From Candidatus Saccharimonadota bacterium (lineage in GTDB: Bacteria; Pseudomonadota; Gammaproteobacteria; Enterobacterales; Enterobacteriaceae): a stretch of DNA of 32,000 nucleotides. Below the pieces are notes generated by a model. The model searched no databases and was not told the origin of the DNA. It saw only the letters and a list, made by a program, of their open reading frames with translations. Within the stretch, counting starts at the first letter, position 1. Every line of letters begins with the position of its first letter. A program made the translations under genes and the position numbers. The stretch is taken from positions 330,001 through 362,000 of the forward strand of contig NC_014909.2 of NCBI RefSeq assembly GCF_000185985.2. The letters run 5' to 3'. Positions 5,023 through 14,959 of the stretch are shown piece by piece.

Positions 5023-6501
5023 ATGAGTATAGAATTTGTCAGTCAACAAATTTTGGTTCCTAATAAGTTGCAAATTAGTGATCTTTCATATTTATTGGGA
5101 ATGGCAGAAAGTTTTAATATCGATTATTCAGATTTATATTTTCAATCCCGTTTTTATGAAAATTGGATTTTAGAAGATAAAATCATTAAATCCGGATCTT
5201 ATCATGTCAATCAAGGGGTTGGAATTCGTGTAATTGTAGGAGAGAAAACAGGGTTTTCTTATACTAATAAGTTAGTTTTAGATTCATTGGTTCACAGTAT
5301 GAATGATGCTATTGGTATTGTGAATTCTAATAATTTTAAGAATGCAATGAAATGTGATAATAGAGAAGTAGAATTACTTTTTTCTAAAAGAGAGAAGGAG
5401 AAAAATGCATATTTAAATGTTAATCCATTATCTGCTATGTCTAATGAAGAAAAAATTGATTTGTTAATAAGAATAGATAAAATTGCTCGCCATGAACATT
5501 CATATGTAAAAACAGTGCAAGCAACTTTATCAGGAATGTATGAGCAAATTTTAGTTGCTGCTACTGATGGAACTTTAAGTGCAGATATACGACCACTAAT
5601 TCGTTTGTCTATATTAGTGCAAGTAGAACATAATGGAAGAAGAGAGCAAGGTTTTAGTGGAGGAGGAGGTAGAAGTGGGTATGATTATTTTTTAAATAAT
5701 ATTATTCACGGAGAATCTTGCATTGATCATTGGACTAAAAATGCCGTTAAAATGGGGGTAACTAATCTTAAATCCATATCAGCCCCGATTGGCACTATGC
5801 CAGTAGTATTAGGTCCTGGTTGGCCGGGAATCCTAATACATGAAGCAGTAGGACATGGATTAGAGTCAGATTTCAATAGAAAAGGTAGCTCTGTATTTTC
5901 TAAAGAAATTGGGAAGAAAGTAGCTTCTGAGTTATGTACGATAGTAGATGATGCAACTTTTAAATTGTCTAGAGGCTCGTTAATCATTGATGATGAAGGA
6001 ATTCCGGGGCAATATAATATTTTAATTAAAGATGGAGTTTTGCAAGGATATATGCAGGATAAATTAAATTCTAAGTTTATGGGAGTATGTTCTACTGGAA
6101 ATGGAAGAAGGGAATCTTATTCGGATTTACCTATGCCCCGTATGACTAATACATATATGTTACCTGGAAAATCTACACCTGAGGAAATTATAAACAGTAT
6201 TGAATATGGAGTATATGCCACAAATTTTGGAGGAGGACAAGTAGATATTACTTCAGGAAAATTTGTTTTTTCTACTTCTGAAGCATTTTTAATAGAAAAA
6301 GGTAATATTACTAATTCAATAAAAGGGGCTACCTTAATTGGATCAGGCATTGAAATAATGCAAAATATTTCTATGATAGGCAATGATTTGTTATTGGATT
6401 CAGGAATAGGTACATGTGTGAAAAATGGACAAAAAATCCCTGTTAGTGTAGGTCAACCTACTATAAAATTAAATAAAATTACAATAGGAGGAGTAACTTA
6501 A
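5023..6501 (+). CDS. tldD: Metalloprotease TldD
   Basis: 492 aa. The [11 protein letters not shown] zinc-binding motif is present, along with strong similarity to the E. coli TldD C-terminal half (NGRRESY...[11 protein letters not shown]). GAGG lies 7 nt upstream of the ATG. Confidence 0.93.
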
Positions 6502-6535
6502 TCTAAATTTATATATAAATTTAGATTAAGTTACT
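6492..6535 (+). repeat. Perfect 44-bp palindrome (22-bp arms, no spacer) spanning the tldD stop codon; candidate intrinsic terminator or 3'-end stabilising hairpin
   Basis: Read directly: agtaacttaatctaaatttata|tataaatttagattaagttact. All 22 position pairs checked are complementary, and the flanks (g6491/g6536) do not pair. The left arm contains the last codons GTA ACT and the TAA (6499-6501) of tldD. Confidence 0.85.
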
Positions 6536-6805
6536 GTTTTGTTGGAAGTCAGTATTCAATTAGATATATTATTTATTTAATTTATATATAGGGATAATTT
6601 AATGTGAGGTTCAAAATTTATTAAAATTGATTAGAGTAAACTTTTTTTAAAAAATCAATATTAAAAGTAAATATACATATTTTTTAATATTTCTTGAAAA
6701 GTTATTTTTGGTAAAATCTTGACCCCCTTATACATAAAGGGATCATTCGATTGTATTGTGCATATGTAATTTTCATTGTTGGTTTTAGAATTATGAGAGA
6801 ATATT

Positions 6806-8146
6806 ATGGATTTAATGAGTGATGCAAAACAAAATGATCTTTTTTTAAAAAAGATAACTAATCGCACTCTGCAATTGACAAGTCAATGTTCTCAAGAATC
6901 AGAGGTCTCTATAATTAAGACTACTGGAATTAATGTAAGTACGCGTTATGGAAACGTAGAAAATATAGAATTTGATAATAATGAGATATTAAAAATTACT
7001 GTATTCTTTCAGCATAAGAAAGGTATAGTTTTTTTAAATAATTTAAGCGAACAATCCATAATAGATGCGGTTCATTATGCAGTGGATATTGCGCGTTATG
7101 CTTCTATAGATTTGTATTCTGGTATTGCAGATAAAGAATTATTAGCGTTTAATCCTGTATATTTAGATTTATGTCATCCAATTGAATTAGATATTAAGTC
7201 AAGTATTCAATTAGCATCTAGAGCAGAAAATACAGCTCTAAATTATGATCGACGAATCATTTGCACAGAAGGAGGAAGATTTAGTAGTCATATTACCACT
7301 GTAATTTTTGGTAATAGTCATGGCATGTTAAGCAGTTATAGTAGTAGTCAATATTTTTTATCTTGTAATGTGATTGCTGAAAGTAATGGTGTTATGGAAC
7401 AAGATTATTCATATACATTAAGCAGAGTTTTTAAAAAATTACGATCACCGGAATGGGTAGGAAAAGAATGTGCTCGGCGTGTGTTAATGCATTTAAACTC
7501 AAGAAAAATTAATACGATAGAATCTCCAGTGTTATTTACTTCAGAAACTGCTGTCAGTTTATTGCAACATTTAGCGAATGCCATTCATGGAGATAATATT
7601 TATAAGCAATCTACTTTTTTATTAAATGATTTAGGAAAAAAAATTTTTCCTTCTTGGTTTTGCATTAAAGAAATACCACATGTTTCTCAAGAGTTAGGTT
7701 CTGCTCCATTTGACGATGAAGGTGTACAAACATTAAATAAATCAATTGTGAAAAACGGGATATTAAATAGTTGGTTATTAAATACTTATTCTGCTAATAA
7801 AATTGGTTTAAAAAGCACTGGAAATGCTGGAGGTATACATAATTGGTATGTTAGTTGTCAAAATATCAGTTTTATGGAATTAATAAAAATCATGAATCGT
7901 GGTTTAATTATTACTAATCTTATGGGACAAGGGGTAAATATAGTAACTGGAGATTATTCAAGAGGAGCTTCTGGTTTTTGGGTAAACCATGGGGAGATAC
8001 AATATCCGGTACATGAAATTACTGTTTCTGGTAACTTACGGCAAATGTTTTTAAATGTGAATTCCATTAGCAATGATATTGAAACACGAAGTAATATTCA
8101 TTGCGGGTCTATATTAATTAATGCTATGCAAATAGCAGGAACTTAA
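6806..8146 (+). CDS. pmbA: Metalloprotease PmbA (TldE), partner of TldD
   Basis: 446 aa. It aligns along its length with E. coli PmbA (KTTGI.VSTRYG.VEN.EF; GLKSTG.AGGIHNW; ITGDYSRGA.GFWV..GEIQYPV.EIT..GNL; NDIETRSNI.CGS.L). Confidence 0.92.
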   Translation: MDLMSDAKQNDLFLKKITNRTLQLTSQCSQESEVSIIKTTGINVSTRYGNVENIEFDNNEILKITVFFQHKKGIVFLNNLSEQSIIDAVHYAVDIARYASIDLYSGIADKELLAFNPVYLDLCHPIELDIKSSIQLASRAENTALNYDRRIICTEGGRFSSHITTVIFGNSHGMLSSYSSSQYFLSCNVIAESNGVMEQDYSYTLSRVFKKLRSPEWVGKECARRVLMHLNSRKINTIESPVLFTSETAVSLLQHLANAIHGDNIYKQSTFLLNDLGKKIFPSWFCIKEIPHVSQELGSAPFDDEGVQTLNKSIVKNGILNSWLLNTYSANKIGLKSTGNAGGIHNWYVSCQNISFMELIKIMNRGLIITNLMGQGVNIVTGDYSRGASGFWVNHGEIQYPVHEITVSGNLRQMFLNVNSISNDIETRSNIHCGSILINAMQIAGT

Positions 8147-8159
8147 TTGTAAATTAAGT
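8141..8159 (+). terminator. Short hairpin (8-bp stem, 3-nt loop) overlapping the pmbA stop codon; weak terminator candidate
   Basis: acttaatt gta aattaagt, with arms that are exact reverse complements. The TAA stop (8144-8146) lies inside the 5' arm. The stem is almost AT-only and no clear T-run follows, so function is uncertain. Confidence 0.3.
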
Positions 8160-8374
8160 AAAGATCGTTCGTTAGACAGCGGATGGGAAATATAATAATG
8201 CACGGTGTTTGCACAAGAAAGGAGCGATAATTTTTTGAATTCTTTAATATATATAAAGAATATTATATTAATTAATTGCAGTGAAGTAAAGTAAGTTATA
8301 TAGGATAAAACCCTACCCTACTGCATCTTTAATTAAGAGACGTATTCTTTATTTATCTTTTAAAATAAGCCTTC

Positions 8375-8490: not shown

Positions 8491-10818
8491 ATGAATACCA
8501 AGCAATCTGAGCGCATAGATATTCCTGTATTACCGTTGCGTGATGTGGTGGTGTATCCGCATATGGTAATTCCTTTGTTTGTCGGTAGAGAAAAATCAAT
8601 TAAATGTCTTGAATATGCTATGAGCGGAGATAAAAAGATTATGCTAGTGGCTCAAAAAGAAGCATCTAATGATGAACCTAGTATTAATGATCTTTTTTCG
8701 GTCGGAACTGTATCTATTATATTACAAATGTTAAAGCTTCCAGATGGTACAGTAAAGGTATTAGTAGAAGGATTAATCCGAGCTCGGATTATTGAATTAA
8801 CAGATTCTGGTAATTACTTTAAAGCTGATGCAGATTATTTTGACATTAAAGAATTAAATGAAAAAGAAAAAGAAGTGTTAATGAGAACTGTAATTCATCA
8901 ATTTGAAGGGTATATTAAACTTAATAAAAAAATCCCTCCTGAAGTATTAGTGTCTTTAAATAATATAAATGATGCTGATCGTTTAGCAGATACTATTGCT
9001 GCTCATATACCGCTTAAATTACATGATAAACAGTCTATATTAGAAATGTCAAATATTACTGAACGTTTAGAATATTTAATATCAGTTATGGAGTCTGAAA
9101 TTGAATTATTGAAAGTAGAAAAACGTATTCGTAATCGAGTAAAAAAGCAAATGGAAAAAAGTCAACGAGAATATTATTTAAATGAACAGATCAAAGCTAT
9201 TCAAAAAGAATTGGGAGAAATGGATAATATTGTTGATGAAAATGAATCTATAAAACGACGAATAGAATCATCTAAAATGCCTAAAGAAGCTCGTAATAAA
9301 ATAGAATCAGAATTTCAAAAGTTAAAAATGATGCCTCCTATGTCTTCGGAAGCTACGGTAGTACGAGGATATATTGATTGGGTATTGTCGGTGCCTTGGC
9401 ATTCTAAAAGTAAAATGAAAAAAGATCTTGTAAAAGCTCAAGAAAGTTTAGATAGAGATCATTATGGCTTAAAACGAGTTAAGGATCGTATATTAGAATA
9501 TTTAGCGGTTCAAAATAGAATAAACAAAATTAGAGGACCTATTTTATGTTTAGTAGGCCCTCCGGGTGTTGGCAAAACATCTCTGGGCAAGTCGATAGCT
9601 AAAGCTACAGGGCGTAAATATATACGTATGGCTTTAGGAGGAATGAGAGATGAAGCAGAAATTAGAGGCCATAGAAGAACTTATATTGGATCTATGCCTG
9701 GAAAATTAATTCAGAAAATGTCTAAGATTGGGGTAAAAAATCCTTTATTTTTATTAGATGAAATTGACAAAATGTCTTTTGATATGCGTGGAGATCCTGC
9801 GTCTGCTTTATTAGAAGTATTAGATCCAGAACAAAATATAGCTTTTAACGATCATTACTTAGAAGTAGATTATGATTTATCTGATGTTATGTTTGTAGCT
9901 ACTTCTAATTCTATGAATATTCCTAGTCCTTTATTAGATAGAATGGAAGTGATTAAATTATCTGGATATACTGAAGAGGAGAAATTTAATATAGCTCGGC
10001 AACACTTATTATCTAAACAAATTGAGCGTAATGCTTTAAAGCCAGGCGAATTATTGATTCAAGATGATGCGTTGACAAGTATCATTCGTTATTATACTAG
10101 AGAAGCTGGAGTACGTAATTTAGAAAGAGAGATTTCTAAATTATGTCGAAAAACAGTAAAAAATTTATTATTGAATAAAAAAATTACCTGTATCACTATT
10201 AATGAAGAAAATTTGAAAGATTTTTTAGGTGTTCAACGTTATGATTGTGCTTTAGCGGAACAAGAAAATAGAATAGGACAAGCAACTGGATTAGCTTGGA
10301 CTGAAGTTGGAGGAGATCTGTTAACTATTGAAACAGTTTGTGTTCCTGGAAAAGGAAAATTAACTTATACTGGATCTTTAGGAGAAATTATGCAGGAGTC
10401 AATTCAAGCGGCCTTGACTGTCGTGCGAGCTCGGGCAGATAAATTAGGTATTAAAACAGACTTTTATGAAAAAAAAGATATTCATGTACATGTTCCAGAA
10501 GGTGCTACTCCAAAAGATGGACCAAGTGCTGGAATTGCTATGTGTACTGCTTTAGTATCTTGTTTAACTGGAAACTCTGTTAAAGCACATGTAGCGATGA
10601 CTGGAGAAATTACTTTACGAGGTCAAGTTTTACCTATTGGTGGCTTAAAAGAAAAATTATTAGCAGCTCATAGGGGGGGGATTAAAACTGTTTTAATCCC
10701 CTATGAAAATAAACGGGATTTAGAGGATATGCCTGATGTTGTTATAAATAATTTAAACATTTATCCAGTCAAACAAATAGATGAAGTATTAACATTAGCT
10801 TTACAAAACGCTCCGTAA
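8491..10818 (+). CDS. lon: ATP-dependent Lon protease
   Basis: 775 aa. Walker A GPPGVGKTS is present, as are the catalytic serine in PKDGPSAG and a lysine in GGLKEKLLAAHRGG. It is near-identical to E. coli Lon over long blocks. It ends at ...LALQNAP, about 9 residues short of E. coli Lon. Confidence 0.98.
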   Translation: MNTKQSERIDIPVLPLRDVVVYPHMVIPLFVGREKSIKCLEYAMSGDKKIMLVAQKEASNDEPSINDLFSVGTVSIILQMLKLPDGTVKVLVEGLIRARIIELTDSGNYFKADADYFDIKELNEKEKEVLMRTVIHQFEGYIKLNKKIPPEVLVSLNNINDADRLADTIAAHIPLKLHDKQSILEMSNITERLEYLISVMESEIELLKVEKRIRNRVKKQMEKSQREYYLNEQIKAIQKELGEMDNIVDENESIKRRIESSKMPKEARNKIESEFQKLKMMPPMSSEATVVRGYIDWVLSVPWHSKSKMKKDLVKAQESLDRDHYGLKRVKDRILEYLAVQNRINKIRGPILCLVGPPGVGKTSLGKSIAKATGRKYIRMALGGMRDEAEIRGHRRTYIGSMPGKLIQKMSKIGVKNPLFLLDEIDKMSFDMRGDPASALLEVLDPEQNIAFNDHYLEVDYDLSDVMFVATSNSMNIPSPLLDRMEVIKLSGYTEEEKFNIARQHLLSKQIERNALKPGELLIQDDALTSIIRYYTREAGVRNLEREISKLCRKTVKNLLLNKKITCITINEENLKDFLGVQRYDCALAEQENRIGQATGLAWTEVGGDLLTIETVCVPGKGKLTYTGSLGEIMQESIQAALTVVRARADKLGIKTDFYEKKDIHVHVPEGATPKDGPSAGIAMCTALVSCLTGNSVKAHVAMTGEITLRGQVLPIGGLKEKLLAAHRGGIKTVLIPYENKRDLEDMPDVVINNLNIYPVKQIDEVLTLALQNAP

Positions 10819-10928
10819 ACCCAACCCGTACAGTATACCCAACAAATCCTCAAAAAGATAACTATCTTTTTGAGGATTTGTTGGGTATACTGTACGGGTT
10901 GGGTTTACGGAGCGTTTTGTAAAGCTAA
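10795..10928. repeat. Perfect inverted repeat with 66-bp arms and a 2-nt centre, beginning 24 nt inside the lon 3' end; giant hairpin or cruciform-forming element and possible terminator
   Basis: Read directly: 10795-10860 (ttagctttacaaaacgctccgtaaacccaacccgtacagtatacccaacaaatcctcaaaaagata) is the exact reverse complement of 10863-10928, and the centre is ac. The next outward pair (a10794/a10929) does not match. By my count the arms are about 39% GC, above the surrounding spacer. Confidence 0.95.
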
Positions 10929-11249
10929 ATAATTTCTTTCTTATGCTGAATTTTAAATATATTTAATAATATCATAATGAGTAACTTGTTGTTTTTATAT
11001 ATGTTATATACATGAATATATATATGAATAATTATTGTTATAAATTGCTTTGTTTTAAAAAGATAGGTAGATAATTTATATAGTTAAAATAATTATATAT
11101 TTATATGTTTTGAATGAAATGATCATATATTTTGGTATTTCAAATTTATATATAAAATATATCATTAACAATAATTTTAATTCTAAAAAGCATTATAAAT
11201 GCATATCTAAATAATTTTTGATAATTTGATATATTAGTAGTCTTGTTAT

Positions 11250-11834
11250 ATGCTACATGATTTTAAATATTTGGCTAAAAATATGGTAAATACTAAAAAT
11301 CAACAATTAATGTTAATTAAAAATAATATTAAATTTATTCCAAATTATCCAAAAAAGGGAATTATATTTAGGGATATTAGCACGTTACTTGCAAATCCTA
11401 ATGCGTATTCTACAAGTATTACACTTTTAGCTAGTCATTATCAACATTATCAATTAACAAAAATAATAGGGGTAGAGGCTCGAGGGTTTTTATTTGGAGC
11501 ACCTTTAGCTTTAATTTTAAAAGTAGGATTTATCCCAGTTCGTAAAGCAGGGAAGTTACCTTGTAATACTATAAATGAAACGTATATTTTAGAATATGGT
11601 ACAGGATGTTTAGAAATACATAAAGATTCAATTGTACCAGGAGATAAAGTTCTTATTGTCGATGATTTATTAGCTACTGGTGGTACAATTGAAGCAACTG
11701 TAAAATTAATTAGAAGATTAGGGGGAAAGGTGAATGATGCTGCTTTTATAATAAATTTAGAATATTTAGGAGGTAATTTATTATTAAAAAATATTGGAGT
11801 AAATACTTATAGTCTAGTAGTATTTTCTGAGTAA
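11250..11834 (+). CDS. apt: Adenine phosphoribosyltransferase
   Basis: PRPP-binding motif [13 protein letters not shown] is present, with near-identity to E. coli Apt ([23 protein letters not shown]). The true start is probably the ATG at 11283 ([17 protein letters not shown]... aligns with E. coli MTATAQQLEYLKNSIK...), giving about 183 aa rather than 194. Confidence 0.93.
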
Positions 11835-11891: not shown

Positions 11892-13556
11892 ATGATTATG
11901 ACTTATCAAATTCTTGCATTAAAATGGAGACCAAAAAAATTTTCAGAGATTGTAGGTCAAGCACATATTATAAAGGCAATGATACGTAGTTTTATTTTGA
12001 ATAGAATACATCATGCTTATATTTTATCTGGAACAAGGGGATCTGGAAAAACTACGATAGCGAGATTATTTGCAAAAGGATTAAATTGTGAAATTCAATT
12101 TGCATCTAATAATGATGTATGCGGTCAATGTAAAAATTGTTTAGATATTGAATCAGGGTGTTTTATTGATCTGATTGAAATAGATGCAGCATCTAGATCT
12201 AAAGTGGAAGAAACTCGGGAATTTTTAGATAATATGCAATATGCCCCGTCTCAAAGTCAATTTAAAATTTATTTAATAGATGAAGCTCATATGTTATCTA
12301 GGCATAGTTTTAATGCATTACTTAAAACATTAGAAGAGCCACCTCATCACGTAAAATTTATCTTAATTACTACCGACCATCAAAAGTTACCAGAAACTAT
12401 ACTATCTCGATGCTTACAGTTTTATTTAAAACCTTTAAGTACTTCTCAAATTACAACTCAATTACAATATATTTGTAATCAAGAAAATATTAATATAAAT
12501 GATATACATTTATTGGAACTATTGGCTAATTCAGCGAAAGGCAGTATGAGAGATGCTTTAAATTTATTAGAGCAAGCAATTATTTTAGGGGATAGTAATC
12601 ATATAACTTCTGACGTTATTAATAATATGCTTGGGATTTTAGATGTAGACGATTCTATATCTTTAATTGAAGATTTAATGAACGGAAATATAAACAATAT
12701 AATGCACAAAATTGATCATTATTCCAATATAGGAATAGATTGGGATCATTTTTTTTCTGAAATACTTACTATTCTTCAAAAAATAGCTATAAATCAATTT
12801 ACTTCATTTTCTACCATACAACAGCATAATACAAATAATAAATCGAAAAATATTAATCATCGTATACATAATTTAAGAACGAAGATATCTCCTGAGACTA
12901 TACAATTATATTATCAAATATTTTTACTAGGTCGACAAGAATTATCTTATGCTCCAAGTTATCGCATAGGAACGGAAATGACCATTTTAAGAGCATTAGC
13001 TTTTTCTCCAATCAATATACAATCAAAAAAAAATAGCAATAAAAATGATATTAATAAATTTAACGATAATTTAAAATATTGTAAAAATTCTTTACCACAA
13101 AGCACAACTCATTTAAACATGTTAACTATCCCTAAGAGTAAAACACTTATTAAAAAACCGTTGATTTCTAATAAGATTCATACAAATACAAATACTATAG
13201 AGTTACAGAAAATACAACATCAACATAATCTTTCTGTAGTAGATAGAAACCTTCCCCAAAACATAATACCTAATGATAATTCTTCCAATCATCAACTTCA
13301 TTTAGGCGACGTGACCAAAATCTTTAATACCCATCTTGTTTCCAATAAAATTCCTTCTAATACTGTTTCTGAAATATTAAAAGCACGATCAAAATTAATT
13401 AACTATCATGACAATTATAATAAAACAATTAAAATGAAGGCTAAATCAGATAAAAACATTGAATTTCAAAAAAAGTTAGCTAATATATTAAAACGATTTT
13501 CTGATATTAATATGACAGCAATTCCTCATGACTCTAAAAATATAAAAAAAAAATGA
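11892..13556 (+). CDS. dnaX: DNA polymerase III subunit tau/gamma (DnaX), domains I-III plus a low-complexity linker; the reading frame ends at a TGA directly after an A10 run
   Basis: Walker A GTRGSGKTT, a Cys4 zinc module (C..C..C..C in NCEIQFASNNDVCGQCKNC) and the SRC motif (ILSRCLQF) are present. It aligns with E. coli DnaX through ...TILRALAFSP. After residue ~375 the sequence is an N/K/I/S-rich linker. The sequence ...AAT ATA AAA AAA AAA TGA TAA terminates the frame at 13554-13556. Confidence 0.9.
   Translation: MIMTYQILALKWRPKKFSEIVGQAHIIKAMIRSFILNRIHHAYILSGTRGSGKTTIARLFAKGLNCEIQFASNNDVCGQCKNCLDIESGCFIDLIEIDAASRSKVEETREFLDNMQYAPSQSQFKIYLIDEAHMLSRHSFNALLKTLEEPPHHVKFILITTDHQKLPETILSRCLQFYLKPLSTSQITTQLQYICNQENININDIHLLELLANSAKGSMRDALNLLEQAIILGDSNHITSDVINNMLGILDVDDSISLIEDLMNGNINNIMHKIDHYSNIGIDWDHFFSEILTILQKIAINQFTSFSTIQQHNTNNKSKNINHRIHNLRTKISPETIQLYYQIFLLGRQELSYAPSYRIGTEMTILRALAFSPINIQSKKNSNKNDINKFNDNLKYCKNSLPQSTTHLNMLTIPKSKTLIKKPLISNKIHTNTNTIELQKIQHQHNLSVVDRNLPQNIIPNDNSSNHQLHLGDVTKIFNTHLVSNKIPSNTVSEILKARSKLINYHDNYNKTIKMKAKSDKNIEFQKKLANILKRFSDINMTAIPHDSKNIKKK
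13544..13553 (+). other. A10 homopolymer at the dnaX frame break; candidate site of transcriptional slippage or +1 ribosomal frameshifting
   Basis: Counted directly as ten consecutive A (13544-13553). The +1 frame has its last upstream stop at 13543-13545 (TAA) and is open from 13546 through 14067. The two dnaX frames therefore overlap only within this run. Confidence 0.7.
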
Positions 13557-13659
13557 TAAAAATCTATTAATAAAAATTAATTCTCACAAATCTAATATTA
13601 ATACCCATAGGGTAGATTATTATATCTATTTAGATTCTAAGAAACCTTTACATGTTATT

Positions 13660-14067
13660 ATGAAAGATATTTTTCAAGAAGCGGTACAATTTGATCCTTG
13701 GATATTTCAAATATATCAGTTGTCTTTATTAAAGCCAGCTAAACAGTTACTTTTAAGTTCTTGGAAACAAATCGTAGATGATAATAAGCTTTATTTAAAT
13801 TTATTAACTTGTTTTCAACATTTGTATTCTAAAGATCTGCATAATGCTATACAATTAGAAATTAGCAATAACCTTAAAATGCCGATTAAATTATATATAA
13901 TAAAAAATGATAATTTTGTAGAAAAAACTCCAATAGAATATTTATATATATTGTATACAAATAAAATTGTACAATTAAAACAAAAAATTTTAATTGATCC
14001 AAACACAAAAATAATTCAATCTCTTTTTAATGCTAAATTTTATGAAGAGGATATTCAAATTTTTTAA
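13660..14067 (+). CDS. dnaX: Detached C-terminal segment of DnaX (tau domain V, the Pol III alpha-binding domain); probably expressed as part of full-length tau after a frame change at 13544-13553 rather than as an independent gene
   Basis: 135-aa ORF in the +1 frame relative to dnaX. FQEAVQFDPWIFQIYQLSLLKPAKQ aligns with E. coli tau AAEAIERDPWAAQVSQLSLPKLVEQ. TPIEYLYILYTNKIVQLKQKILIDPNTKIIQSLFNAKFYEEDIQIF aligns with TPLEWRQAIYEEKLAQARESIIADNNIQTLRRFFDAELDEESIRPI, the extreme C-terminus of tau. There is no Shine-Dalgarno sequence before the ATG at 13660. Confidence 0.75.
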   Translation: MKDIFQEAVQFDPWIFQIYQLSLLKPAKQLLLSSWKQIVDDNKLYLNLLTCFQHLYSKDLHNAIQLEISNNLKMPIKLYIIKNDNFVEKTPIEYLYILYTNKIVQLKQKILIDPNTKIIQSLFNAKFYEEDIQIF

Positions 14068-14290
14068 TATATATAAGATATATAAGATTATCCATATAAT
14101 TTCTGAATTCTATTATGATGTAAAATATTTTATTTGAATTAAATGAAAATATAGTTATAAATTAAAATTTATAACAATTAATCATATTAATGTAAAATGT
14201 AAAACACAATGATTTTAGAATTAAATACATTAACTGAAATAATTACTAATTTTTGTATAACTATAATAAGAAAATTTTTAATAGATTTAT

Positions 14291-14959
14291 ATGATTCGTA
14301 TTATATTTTTGGGTCCTCCGGGATCTGGAAAAGGAACACAAGCTCATTTAATTGCAGATTTGTATAATATACCTAACATTTCTTCGGGAGAAATATTAAG
14401 ACATTCATATAATACCTTCAAGTTAAATTTACCCTCTACTAACGCTATAAACCTAATAAATTCTGGAAAATTAGTAAATGACGAATTAATAATAAAATTA
14501 ATTATTAACCGTATACGCAAAACAGATTGCCAACATGGTTTTATAATCGATGGATTTCCTAGAACAATTAATCAAGCTATAGCCATAAAAAAAAATAAAA
14601 TTTCTATTGACTTTGTAATAGAATTTTACATGAAAGATGCTGAAATTATCGATCGAATTATAGGGAGACAAATTCATTTATCGTCAGGCAGAATATATCA
14701 TAAAAAATATAATCCTCCGAAATTCCACGGGATAGACGATATTACTGGAGAAAACCTAATTGTTCGAAAAGATGATACCGAAGAAGTAATACAACAACGA
14801 TTAGATCAATATTATAAATATACAGCTCCACTTTCAAATTACTATAAAAAACAAGCAAAAAAAAATAATATGCATTTTTACGTTATAAACAGTAACCAAG
14901 AGATCATGAAAATTCATACAGAATTAGTTGATATCATAAATTTGTATGCATCAACTTAA
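14291..14959 (+). CDS. adk: Adenylate kinase
   Basis: 222 aa. It has the P-loop GPPGSGKGTQ, then GF.IDGFPRT, and a LID region with GR..H..SGR.YH. The length and order of motifs are typical of Adk. Confidence 0.95.
   Translation: MIRIIFLGPPGSGKGTQAHLIADLYNIPNISSGEILRHSYNTFKLNLPSTNAINLINSGKLVNDELIIKLIINRIRKTDCQHGFIIDGFPRTINQAIAIKKNKISIDFVIEFYMKDAEIIDRIIGRQIHLSSGRIYHKKYNPPKFHGIDDITGENLIVRKDDTEEVIQQRLDQYYKYTAPLSNYYKKQAKKNNMHFYVINSNQEIMKIHTELVDIINLYAST

What the first reader, a model, noticed from the sequence alone, without database searches (positions are those of the whole stretch)
10795..10928. Perfect 66-bp-arm inverted repeat that starts inside the lon coding sequence
Seen directly: 10795-10860 and 10863-10928 are exact reverse complements (66/66) with a 2-nt centre. 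The left arm contains the last seven lon codons plus the stop (LALQNAP, TAA) and 42 nt of 3' flank. The right arm is a mirror copy of them on the other strand. On the minus strand that mirror copy is preceded by a stop only four codons upstream, so it is not a second gene end.

A 134-nt perfect palindrome is far beyond chance and far longer than a normal intrinsic terminator. The innermost ~17 bp (aaatcctcaaaaagata / tatctttttgaggattt) look like an ordinary terminator stem, and the remainder looks like an extension of it.

Perfect symmetry in a fast-evolving AT-biased genome implies one of three things:
- a very recent inverted duplication, for example template switching at a hairpin;
- active homogenisation of the arms;
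- an assembly artefact.

Lon here ends about 9 residues earlier than E. coli Lon, so the event may have remodelled the gene end. The site is also a synteny junction: in E. coli, hupB, ppiD and many other genes lie between lon and apt.

Possible roles are an extremely stable 3' hairpin that terminates or protects the lon mRNA, a cruciform, or a rearrangement scar.
Basis: seen in the sequence. Interest (0 to 1): 0.65.

Follow-up and report, generated by a model that had tools for sequence, protein, structure and literature searches.

The report
Long perfect palindrome ending lon
A real, exactly mirrored 134-base DNA hairpin sits at the end of the lon gene of the carpenter-ant symbiont Blochmannia vafer, at the spot where relatives keep their signal-recognition-particle RNA gene; long palindromes were already reported for this genome in 2010, so it is a documented oddity, not a discovery.

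Summary
Positions 10795-10860 and 10863-10928 are 66/66 complementary around a 2-nt centre. The left arm holds the last seven lon codons, the stop and 42 nt of flank.

The window matches Candidatus Blochmannia vafer BVAF in gene order and dnaX frameshift. Its genome paper (PMC3017870) already reports ten large palindromes of 64-136 bp, four of them over 100 bp. Two of these blocked Sanger sequencing and the Velvet k=49 assembly and were closed by hand, with 470-626x read support. My k-mer reconstruction and the estimated distance to tolA suggest this palindrome is one of those two gaps. An artefact is therefore unlikely.

Findings I did not see in the text I read:
- The palindrome lies where relatives carry ffs (4.5S RNA). 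B. vafer has lost ffs, ffh and ftsY.
- The left arm is the source and the right arm the copy, so lon's end was the template and was not remodelled.
- The mirrored Gln-Asn codons (CAAAAC) create a U-tract after a GC-rich stem.
- No relative has a comparable palindrome at lon.

Best reading: a lineage-specific, recent hairpin-primed template switch, tolerated because SbcCD is absent. It now acts by default as the lon 3' hairpin and is a likely RNase III substrate. Interest is low to moderate.

The parts
8491..10818 (+). lon (endopeptidase La), 775 aa. Its last 24 nt (seven codons plus TAA) lie inside the left arm.
   Evidence: ORF. NCBIfam NF008053 scores 1559 bits over residues 1-775. Corresponds to BVAF_302 in the ortholog table.
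10795..10860 (+). Left arm, the source copy: lon codons LALQNAP, the stop at 10816-10818, and 42 nt of 3' flank at about 40% G+C.
   Evidence: The outer 15 nt encode LALQN, which is conserved in relatives, so this arm is the original.
10861..10862 (.). The 2-nt centre (AC). It is not self-complementary.
   Evidence: Because of it, 49-mers that span the centre are unique.
10863..10928 (+). Right arm: an exact inverted copy of the left arm. It carries a non-coding mirror of the lon end on the minus strand.
   Evidence: The minus-strand translation reads *ERNYLALQNAP*.
10844..10879 (+). Innermost 17-bp stem plus loop (AAATCCTCAAAAAGATA-ac-TATCTTTTTGAGGATTT). It is the candidate pre-existing hairpin that seeded the template switch.
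   Evidence: Sequence. The seeding role is an inference. A 12/13 match to the sequence just 3' of ffs in L083 has p about 0.02 uncorrected and is not significant.
10804..10815 (+). A-tract CAAAAC (Gln-Asn codons, 10804-10809) followed by the GC-rich stem base CGCTCCG (10809-10815).
   Evidence: Read. These are conserved lon codons.
10908..10919 (+). Mirror of the previous part: CGGAGCG (10908-10914) followed directly by GTTTTG (10914-10919). In the lon transcript this places a U-tract right after a 52-bp stem.
   Evidence: Read. The consensus terminator scan does not call it, because that scan counts at most 20 pairs and requires a loop of 3-8 nt.
10929..11249 (+). The rest of the lon-apt spacer. 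It is AT-rich and has no SRP RNA gene.
   Evidence: Rfam finds no RF00169 match even at E<=10. The 22-nt domain IV motif is absent from the whole window with up to 3 mismatches.
11250..11834 (+). apt (adenine phosphoribosyltransferase), the next gene downstream. The database protein is 183 aa, so the real start is probably 11283.
   Evidence: P0121: 100% identical, 183 aa.

Best explanation
This is a genuine long perfect palindrome in the chromosome of Candidatus Blochmannia vafer. It is one of the four palindromes over 100 nt already reported for that genome.

**Origin (inferred).** It most likely arose recently, and only in this lineage, by an intramolecular hairpin-primed template switch during replication.
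1. The nascent strand folded back at a short terminator-like hairpin downstream of lon.
2. It copied itself backwards for about 50 nt or more, through the lon stop codon and into the last seven codons.
3. It then returned to the normal template, overwriting whatever lay downstream.

The site is the spacer where relatives carry ffs. B. vafer has lost the whole SRP pathway, so nothing essential was left to protect. The palindrome persists because Blochmannia has no SbcCD hairpin nuclease, no RecA and no MutS. The same template-switch process can also keep the arms identical.

**Function (inferred).** In the lon transcript it forms a hairpin of -119 kcal/mol. A 52-bp portion of that stem is followed directly by UUUUGU, the mirror of the Gln-Asn codons. 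It therefore most likely ends or caps the lon mRNA by default. As 66 bp of perfect dsRNA it should also be cut by the RNase III that the genome retains.

**Shown:** the structure, its position, the direction of copying, its absence from relatives, and the loss of ffs.
**Inferred:** the template-switch origin, termination, and RNase III processing.
For: **Structure and uniqueness**
-.

**Identity of the genome**
- The gene order mreBCD-tldD-pmbA-lon-apt-dnaX(split)-adk-lpxH-cysS-folD-tRNA-ytfF-mrdB-mrdA-ybeB-holA-rlpB-leuS-lnt-ybeX-ybeY-ybeZ equals BVAF_297..320.
- The window's own Apt lies on a 722,585-bp contig. The published genome size is 722,593 bp at 27.5% GC.

**Published palindromes**
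- Ten in B. vafer, 64-136 bp, four over 100 bp, nearly all at least partly intergenic.
- Two blocked Sanger sequencing and Velvet, and were closed with Illumina reads at 470x and 626x.

**This palindrome is probably one of those gaps**
- With k=49 the only repeated canonical 49-mers in the window are 18, all in the arms. Contigs would stop at 10842 and restart at 10881, leaving 18+2+18 nt.
- That matches '18 bp' of Sanger extension plus five rounds of 4-7 bp.
- tolA, the site of the third gap, is BVAF_339. I estimate it lies 41-43 kb downstream from the gene list, against a 42,053-bp contig.

**Copy direction**
- The LALQN codons in the left arm are conserved in relatives.

**Lineage specificity**
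- No comparable inverted repeat follows lon in ten related loci.

**ffs site**
- RF00169 lies between lon and apt in B. floridanus, the B. camponoti clade, B. ocreatus and the C. obliquus symbiont. It is absent here.
- ffs, ffh and ftsY are blank for B. vafer in the ortholog table. The loss is also stated in PMC4779614.

**Repair and RNase gene content**
- There are no sbcC, sbcD, recA, mutS, xseA or recJ rows. rnc, rho, sbcB, smpB and tmRNA are present.

**Mechanism precedent**
- PMC8794818 and PMC7202029.
Against: - No close relative or ancestral state is available. The nearest Lon is 89% identical and the spacers cannot be aligned. The 'before' sequence of a template switch cannot be shown, and the seed hairpin is only assumed.
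- I could not inspect reads. No independent assembly of this species is in the collections.
- The consensus terminator scan calls nothing here. The sequence just after the full stem (AAUAAUUUCUUUCUU) is only moderately U-rich.
- The genome authors argued that such palindromes would decay without selection. That favours a selected function over a neutral by-product.
Confidence: 0.6

Rival explanations
1. Selected 3' element. The palindrome is kept by natural selection as a lon terminator, as an mRNA stabiliser, or as an RNase III retroregulation site. This is what the genome authors suggested for Blochmannia palindromes in general.
For: - The authors argue that intergenic palindromes would decay under Blochmannia's high mutation rate unless favoured. 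They found them in all three genomes studied: 20, 10 and 6.
- The architecture is terminator-like when nested: A-tract, GC-rich stem base, U-tract.
- A second perfect palindrome (6492-6535) also overlaps a stop codon (tldD) and is followed by GTTTTGTT.
- rnc and rho are retained.
Against: - Function does not need 66/66 identity. Selection on an RNA stem would tolerate G-U pairs and mismatches.
- No relative has a comparable element after lon, so it is not conserved.
- Perfect arms are what recency or mechanical homogenisation predicts.
- The scan finds no canonical terminator.
Confidence: 0.2
2. Perfected fossil of ffs. After ffh and ftsY were lost, the dead 4.5S RNA gene, itself a roughly 100-nt imperfect hairpin, was converted by repeated quasipalindrome template switches into a perfect palindrome at the same locus.
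For: - Same position as ffs in four relatives and a similar size (91-98 nt against 134 nt).
- The SRP proteins are lost.
- The arm flank is about 40% G+C, unusual for a Blochmannia spacer.
- There is a 12/13 match, ATCCTCAA(T)AAAG, to the sequence at the 3' end of ffs in L083.
Against: - There is no detectable similarity. The domain IV motif is absent with up to 3 mismatches, and Rfam gives no SRP hit at E<=10.
- Local alignments of four ffs 3' halves rank the palindrome 346th to 1189th of 3192 window tiles.
- The short match is not significant after correcting for the eight comparisons made.
- The arms extend into lon codons, so the symmetry axis is not that of an RNA gene lying 56 nt or more downstream of lon.
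Confidence: 0.1
3. Assembly artefact. The perfect symmetry, or the whole fold-back, was produced by de Bruijn graph behaviour at a hairpin plus manual gap closure, and the real sequence differs.
For: - A perfect 66-nt arm cannot be traversed at k=49.
- The paper states that two gaps at palindromes were closed by hand, by an 18-bp overlap or by iterative read-walking. The central ~38 nt would then rest on that procedure.
- Coverage inside one long palindrome was 276x against 930x genome-wide, with unclear linkage among three variants.
- No independent assembly is available.
Against: - If this palindrome is one of the two hand-closed gaps, each contig would have carried up to 48 nt of an arm attached to unique flank. 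Most of the inverted repeat would then be de novo assembled (inference).
- PCR from genomic DNA sized the gaps as short, and Sanger reads failed because of secondary structure. That is physical evidence for a hairpin.
- The full read set mapped back at 470x and 626x across the closed gaps.
- The lon-apt adjacency is ancestral, not a suspicious join.
Confidence: 0.08
4. Dispersed palindromic element of the REP, MITE or RPE type that inserted next to lon.
For: Such elements are palindromic, are often intergenic, and sit at gene ends (general knowledge).
Against: - The arm occurs only at this locus in the 32-kb window, even allowing 3 mismatches.
- There are no matches in viral contigs or plasmids.
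- One arm is simply the lon coding end and its flank, so the 'element' has no sequence of its own.
- The published Blochmannia genomes are described as having strictly conserved gene order.
Confidence: 0.02

Closest known systems
Long intergenic palindromes of Blochmannia genomes (Williams & Wernegreen 2010, BMC Genomics 11:687; PMC3017870)
   Same: Same genome. It meets their search criteria (arms of 30 bp or more, gap of 20 or less, 3 mismatches or fewer), lies partly in an intergenic spacer, and falls in their 64-136 bp range and their class of four over 100 bp. It fits their account of palindromes that blocked Sanger sequencing and Velvet.
   Different: The accessible text does not list individual palindromes. 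It does not mention that this one starts inside lon or that it occupies the former ffs site. They propose transcription control or mRNA stabilisation. I favour a mutational origin with a default function.
Quasipalindrome-associated template-switch mutation (Ripley model; E. coli work of the Lovett laboratory, PMC7202029; RNA-hairpin creation by template switching, PMC8794818)
   Same: A hairpin-primed strand switch writes the exact reverse complement of adjacent sequence. It makes or extends perfect stems in one step, does not need RecA, and can re-homogenise the arms.
   Different: Typical documented events copy a few to a few tens of bases. Here at least about 49 nt beyond the presumed seed were copied. 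No ancestral sequence is available to show the event.
Intrinsic (Rho-independent) terminators, including bidirectional ones with paired A- and U-tracts
   Same: It sits at the 3' end of a gene. It has a GC-rich stem base (CGCUCCG/CGGAGCG) flanked by CAAAAC upstream and GUUUUG downstream, and the stem overlaps the stop codon as in many compact genomes.
   Different: The stem is 52-66 bp against the usual 5-20 bp, and the loop is 2-4 nt. The consensus scan does not call it. Termination has not been measured.
RNase III-processed 3' hairpins, for example lambda sib retroregulation of int (from my own knowledge)
   Same: A long 3' hairpin downstream of a coding region would be a substrate for RNase III, which the genome retains (rnc, BVAF_542). 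Cleavage would expose the upstream mRNA to 3' exonucleases.
   Different: No cleavage data exist. Here the stem includes the stop codon and the last seven codons, so cleavage could even produce non-stop lon mRNA. That is speculation.
Engineered long palindromes in the E. coli chromosome that are cleaved by SbcCD (from my own knowledge)
   Same: A perfect palindrome over 100 bp with a tiny spacer, expected to extrude a hairpin or cruciform during replication.
   Different: This one is natural and chromosomal, and it is stable enough to be the majority genotype. The host has no sbcC or sbcD in its ortholog table.

Membership tests
Blochmannia long palindromes (EMBOSS palindrome definition of PMC3017870) | Inverted repeat with arms of 30-1000 bp, a gap of 20 bp or less, and 3 mismatches or fewer | tested here: met
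   66-nt arms, 2-nt gap, 0 mismatches. Criteria quoted.
Blochmannia long palindromes (EMBOSS palindrome definition of PMC3017870) | Located at least partly in an intergenic spacer of a Blochmannia genome | tested here: met
   24 nt lie in lon and 110 nt in the lon-apt spacer. The window matches B. vafer gene order BVAF_297-320.
Intrinsic terminator | Short GC-rich stem (about 5-20 bp) with a 3-8 nt loop | tested here: not met
   The stem is 66 bp with a 2-nt centre. The consensus scan finds 0 sites in 10300-11400.
Intrinsic terminator | U-tract immediately 3' of the stem | tested here: inconclusive
   After the full stem comes AAUAAUUUCUUUCUU. Nested inside, CGGAGCG is followed directly by UUUUGU (10915-10920), which also pairs with the upstream CAAAAC.
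Intrinsic terminator | Transcripts end at the element | not testable with these tools
   This needs Term-seq or 3' RACE on symbiont RNA.
Template-switch (quasipalindrome) product | The new sequence is the exact reverse complement of immediately adjacent sequence | tested here: met
   The right arm is the exact reverse complement of the left arm. The left arm is the original because it carries conserved lon codons.
Template-switch (quasipalindrome) product | The ancestral or sister sequence lacks the copied segment and has only the short seed repeat | tested here: inconclusive
   Ten related loci lack any comparable repeat after lon. The nearest is only 89% identical in Lon and the spacers do not align.
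Bacterial small SRP RNA (ffs, RF00169) | Conserved domain IV (GGUCAGGUCUGGAAAGAAGCAGC-like motif with a GNRA loop) and a covariance-model score above threshold | tested here: not met
   No RF00169 match at the gathering score or at E<=10 in 10600-11400. The motif is absent with up to 3 mismatches. The same searches find ffs in L001, L083, L090 and L091.
Dispersed palindromic repeats (REP/BIME, MITE, RPE) | Many copies per genome with a family consensus | tested here: not met
   Only this locus matches within the 32-kb window. Nothing matches in viral contigs or plasmids. The rest of the genome could not be searched.
Fold-back assembly artefact | Sits at a contig end or join and lacks reads that cross flank-arm-centre | not testable with these tools
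   Location at a hand-closed gap is likely. The paper reports 470-626x mapped coverage and Sanger blockage by secondary structure. Reads are not available here.

The most novel reading that the evidence does not exclude
In SbcCD-, RecA- and MutS-less endosymbionts, hairpin-primed template switching is an active generator of new gene-end structures. After B. vafer lost the SRP pathway, the relic ffs hairpin or its terminator next to lon was converted in one or a few steps into a perfect 134-nt palindrome. This palindrome now terminates lon and is cleaved by RNase III inside the last codons, so a purely mutational process created a new retroregulatory element. It lies 1-3 kb from the apparent replication terminus.
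Probability: 0.12. Interest if true: 0.5.

Novelty: already known. Interest (0 to 1): 0.3.

Why it matters
- The case shows that a finished endosymbiont genome can stably carry a perfect palindrome over 130 bp that would be lethal or unstable in E. coli. This is consistent with the loss of SbcCD.
- It marks the exact place where an otherwise near-universal RNA gene (ffs) disappeared.
- For annotation, it warns that lon's stop codon and last codons are part of a very strong RNA and DNA hairpin, and that this region was probably closed by hand.
- For evolution, it is a clean candidate example of template switching building a large hairpin in one step.
- None of this changes current understanding. 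The palindromes and the SRP loss are both published.

Tried and rejected
1. **Independent assemblies of the same organism.** Exact look-ups of the window's Lon and Apt, and of P0121, found nothing. Read-level or second-assembly support could not be checked.
2. **ffs remnant in the palindrome or spacer.** All tests were negative:
   - Rfam at E<=10.
   - The domain IV motif with 3 mismatches.
   - Shuffled-control local alignments.
   - A tile-ranking test of four ffs 3' halves against the whole window.
   - An apparent CCGTAA...ATCCTCAA spacing match to L083 did not survive that test.
3. **Alignment of the lon-apt spacer with relatives.** The spacers are saturated and no informative homology remains.
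4. **A matching palindrome in the closest Logan sample (SRR12918483).** Its lon contig stops 22 nt after the stop codon. The tail of L081 and the head of L089 are not complementary by eye, so there is no evidence for a palindrome there.
5. **Mobile-element or phage origin.** No other copy in the window, and no hits in viral contigs or plasmids.
6. **Rfam hits to plant and animal microRNA precursors (MIR7993, MIR1878 and others).** All score below their gathering thresholds. I read them as a generic long-hairpin effect, not homology.
7. **Exact distance to the tolA gap.** I used an estimate from the gene list.
Full report
**1. The observation**

The repeat is exactly as described. The arms 10795-10860 and 10863-10928 are 66/66 complementary with a 2-nt centre.
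- It is by far the largest inverted repeat in the window. The next perfect hairpin has a 22-bp stem.
- As RNA it folds at -119.1 kcal/mol, with z = -22 against dinucleotide shuffles. As DNA it folds at -81 kcal/mol, z = -26.
- lon is the ORF 8491-10818 (NF008053). The left arm therefore holds LALQNAP, the TAA at 10816-10818, and 42 nt of flank.
- The minus-strand mirror reads *ERNY-LALQNAP*. It is not a second gene end.

**2. Where the window comes from**

The annotated order is mreB-mreC-mreD-tldD-pmbA-lon-apt-dnaX (split into two ORFs)-adk-lpxH-cysS-folD-tRNA-ytfF-mrdB-mrdA-ybeB-holA-rlpB-leuS-lnt-ybeX-ybeY-ybeZ.
- This is the order of BVAF_297 to BVAF_320 in the ortholog table of the Candidatus Blochmannia vafer genome paper (PMC3017870). 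The dnaX frameshift is described there too.
- The closest Lon proteins in the databases are 86-89% identical and belong to other Blochmannia. B. vafer itself is missing from the named hits.
- The window's own Apt sits on a 722,585-bp contig. The published size is 722,593 bp at 27.5% GC, and the window is about 27% GC.
- I take the window to be B. vafer BVAF.

**3. What is already published**

The genome paper searched the three Blochmannia genomes then available for palindromes with arms of 30 bp or more, a gap of 20 or less, and 3 mismatches or fewer.
[quoted passage not shown] - It suggested roles in transcription control or mRNA stability. The present element meets those criteria.
- The Velvet assembly (k=49, 100-bp paired reads) gave three contigs of 42,053, 118,857 and 561,103 bp. 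One gap was the tolA repeat.
[quoted passage not shown] They were closed by hand from Illumina reads and checked by mapping at 470x and 626x.
- A follow-up paper found 419 variants between two B. vafer genotypes in the same read set. Three of them lay inside one of the four long palindromes, where coverage was 276x against 930x.

**4. Is this palindrome one of the hand-closed gaps?**

Probably.
- At k=49 the only repeated canonical k-mers in the whole window are 18, all in the arms. A de Bruijn contig from the left would stop at 10842 and the one from the right would start at 10881. That leaves 38 nt, made up of 18 + 2 + 18.
- The paper's third gap was closed by a Sanger extension of '18 bp' followed by five rounds of 4-7 bp of read-walking. 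That is what these numbers predict.
- tolA is BVAF_339. Adding typical lengths for BVAF_320-338 to the 21 kb seen in the window puts it roughly 41-43 kb downstream, against the 42,053-bp contig. This is an estimate.
- If so, the central ~38 nt rests on manual closure. The outer 48 nt of each arm was assembled de novo onto unique flank, and the Sanger failure is physical evidence of a hairpin in genomic DNA. I put an artefact at about 8%.

**5. The locus in relatives**

- B. floridanus has the same pmbA-lon-apt-dnaX order. The lon-apt adjacency is therefore ancestral gene loss and not a fresh junction.
- Between lon and apt, B. floridanus carries the SRP RNA gene ffs (RF00169, 50.7 bits, starting 56 nt after the lon stop).
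- ffs is also there in the B. camponoti clade, in B. ocreatus, and in the symbiont of Colobopsis obliquus. The last still has lon-hupB-ffs-hha-apt.
- The 22-nt domain IV motif is identical in B. floridanus and B. camponoti. It is absent from the entire window even with three mismatches.
- Rfam finds no SRP RNA here at any threshold.
- The ortholog table leaves ffs, ffh and ftsY blank for B. vafer. Another paper lists B. vafer among the few bacteria lacking both SRP components.
- The palindrome therefore occupies the site of a lost ffs.
- No relative has a comparable repeat after lon. They show only short AT-rich imperfect ones.

**6. Direction and age of the duplication**

- The outermost 15 nt of the left arm encode LALQN, which is conserved in every relative. 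The left arm is therefore the original and the right arm the copy.
- A single event therefore used the lon end as template and did not rewrite it. The short Lon C-terminus (775 aa against 776-794) is not explained by this event.
- The two B. vafer genotypes differ at 5.8e-4 per site (419 of 722,593). By my arithmetic, the chance of no mismatch in 132 nt falls below 5% once about 0.023 substitutions per site have accumulated.
- Spacers between species are saturated. The duplication, or the last homogenisation, is thus recent on the species scale. It need not be younger than the genotype split.

**7. Mechanism**

The simplest process that writes an exact reverse complement of adjacent sequence next to a hairpin is an intramolecular template switch at a quasipalindrome. 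This process does not depend on RecA. It is documented in E. coli and has been shown to create and maintain RNA hairpins (PMC7202029, PMC8794818).
- The innermost 17-bp stem (10844-10879) is a plausible seed.
- Blochmannia's ortholog table has no sbcC, sbcD, recA, mutS, xseA or recJ. That removes the nuclease which destroys long palindromes in E. coli (my own knowledge).
- I tested whether the arms are a relic of ffs. They are not detectably so.

**8. Likely function**

- In the lon transcript the stem base CGCUCCG/CGGAGCG is preceded by CAAAAC (the Gln-Asn codons) and followed by its mirror GUUUUG (10914-10919).
- That is the A-tract, GC stem, U-tract layout of an intrinsic terminator with a 52-bp stem. 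The consensus scan cannot call it, because it counts at most 20 pairs and requires a 3-8 nt loop.
- rho and rnc are retained. A 66-bp perfect duplex should be an RNase III substrate (my own knowledge). Cleavage could even remove the stop codon. smpB and tmRNA are present.
- All of this is inference.
- A second perfect palindrome (6492-6535, 22-bp stem) overlaps the tldD stop and is followed by GTTTTGTT. Hairpins that reach into the last codons are thus not unique to lon.

**9. Verdict**

The element is real with high probability and belongs to a class already published for this very genome.
- What I add is its placement at the lost ffs site, the copy direction, the terminator-like nesting, its lineage specificity, and the likely link to a manually closed gap.
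- Novelty: already known. Interest: low to moderate.

Noticed in passing
window 6492-6535: A second perfect palindrome (22-bp stem, no spacer, 14% G+C). It starts 7 nt before the end of the tldD stop codon region and is followed by GTTTTGTT, so it looks like the tldD terminator. The B. camponoti-clade locus has a 19-bp perfect hairpin in the same tldD-pmbA spacer (L083 177-215).
   Followed up: partly
window 10819-11249; L082 5335-6028; L086 3030-3567; L087; L088 196-408: Besides the window, four Blochmannia contigs assembled from public ant sequencing runs have no detectable SRP RNA gene between lon and apt (Rfam at E<=0.01). B. floridanus, B. camponoti, B. ocreatus and the C. obliquus symbiont do have one there. 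Loss or relocation of ffs may be recurrent in Blochmannia.
   Followed up: partly
window about 12000-14300: Third-codon-position GC skew on the + strand is positive for every gene up to dnaX, whatever the gene's strand. It is mostly negative from adk onward, and cumulative GC skew peaks at 12-13 kb. This looks like the replication terminus, only 1-3 kb downstream of the palindrome. The counts per gene are small.
   Followed up: partly
window 11892-13556 and 13660-14067: dnaX is split into two ORFs (554 aa and 135 aa). The second matches the tau C-terminus. This is the homopolymer frameshift already described for B. vafer and B. floridanus.
   Followed up: yes
window 10677-10701; L001 4978-5002: A 12-bp perfect hairpin with a 1-nt loop (GGGGATTAAAAC-t-GTTTTAATCCCC) lies inside the lon coding sequence, at the GGIKTVLIP codons. 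B. floridanus has an 11/12 version at the same place. It may simply reflect the codons used.
   Followed up: no
L081 3979-4000 and L089 1-126 (Logan SRR12918483): In the sample with the closest Lon (89%), the lon contig ends 22 nt after the stop codon and the apt contig starts 126 nt before apt. The spacer failed to assemble there too. The two contig ends are not complementary by eye.
   Followed up: partly
L085 (Polyrhachis turneri symbiont) 5469-8337: This genome has lon-hupB followed by pmbA and tldD on the opposite strand, with recC upstream of lon. It therefore has an inversion relative to the Camponotus symbionts, with a breakpoint next to lon-hupB.
   Followed up: no
window 8491-10818: The window's own Lon protein is absent from the protein collection, in both the homology search and the exact look-up. 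Its Apt is present there (P0121). The reason is unknown and may be an indexing gap.
   Followed up: no
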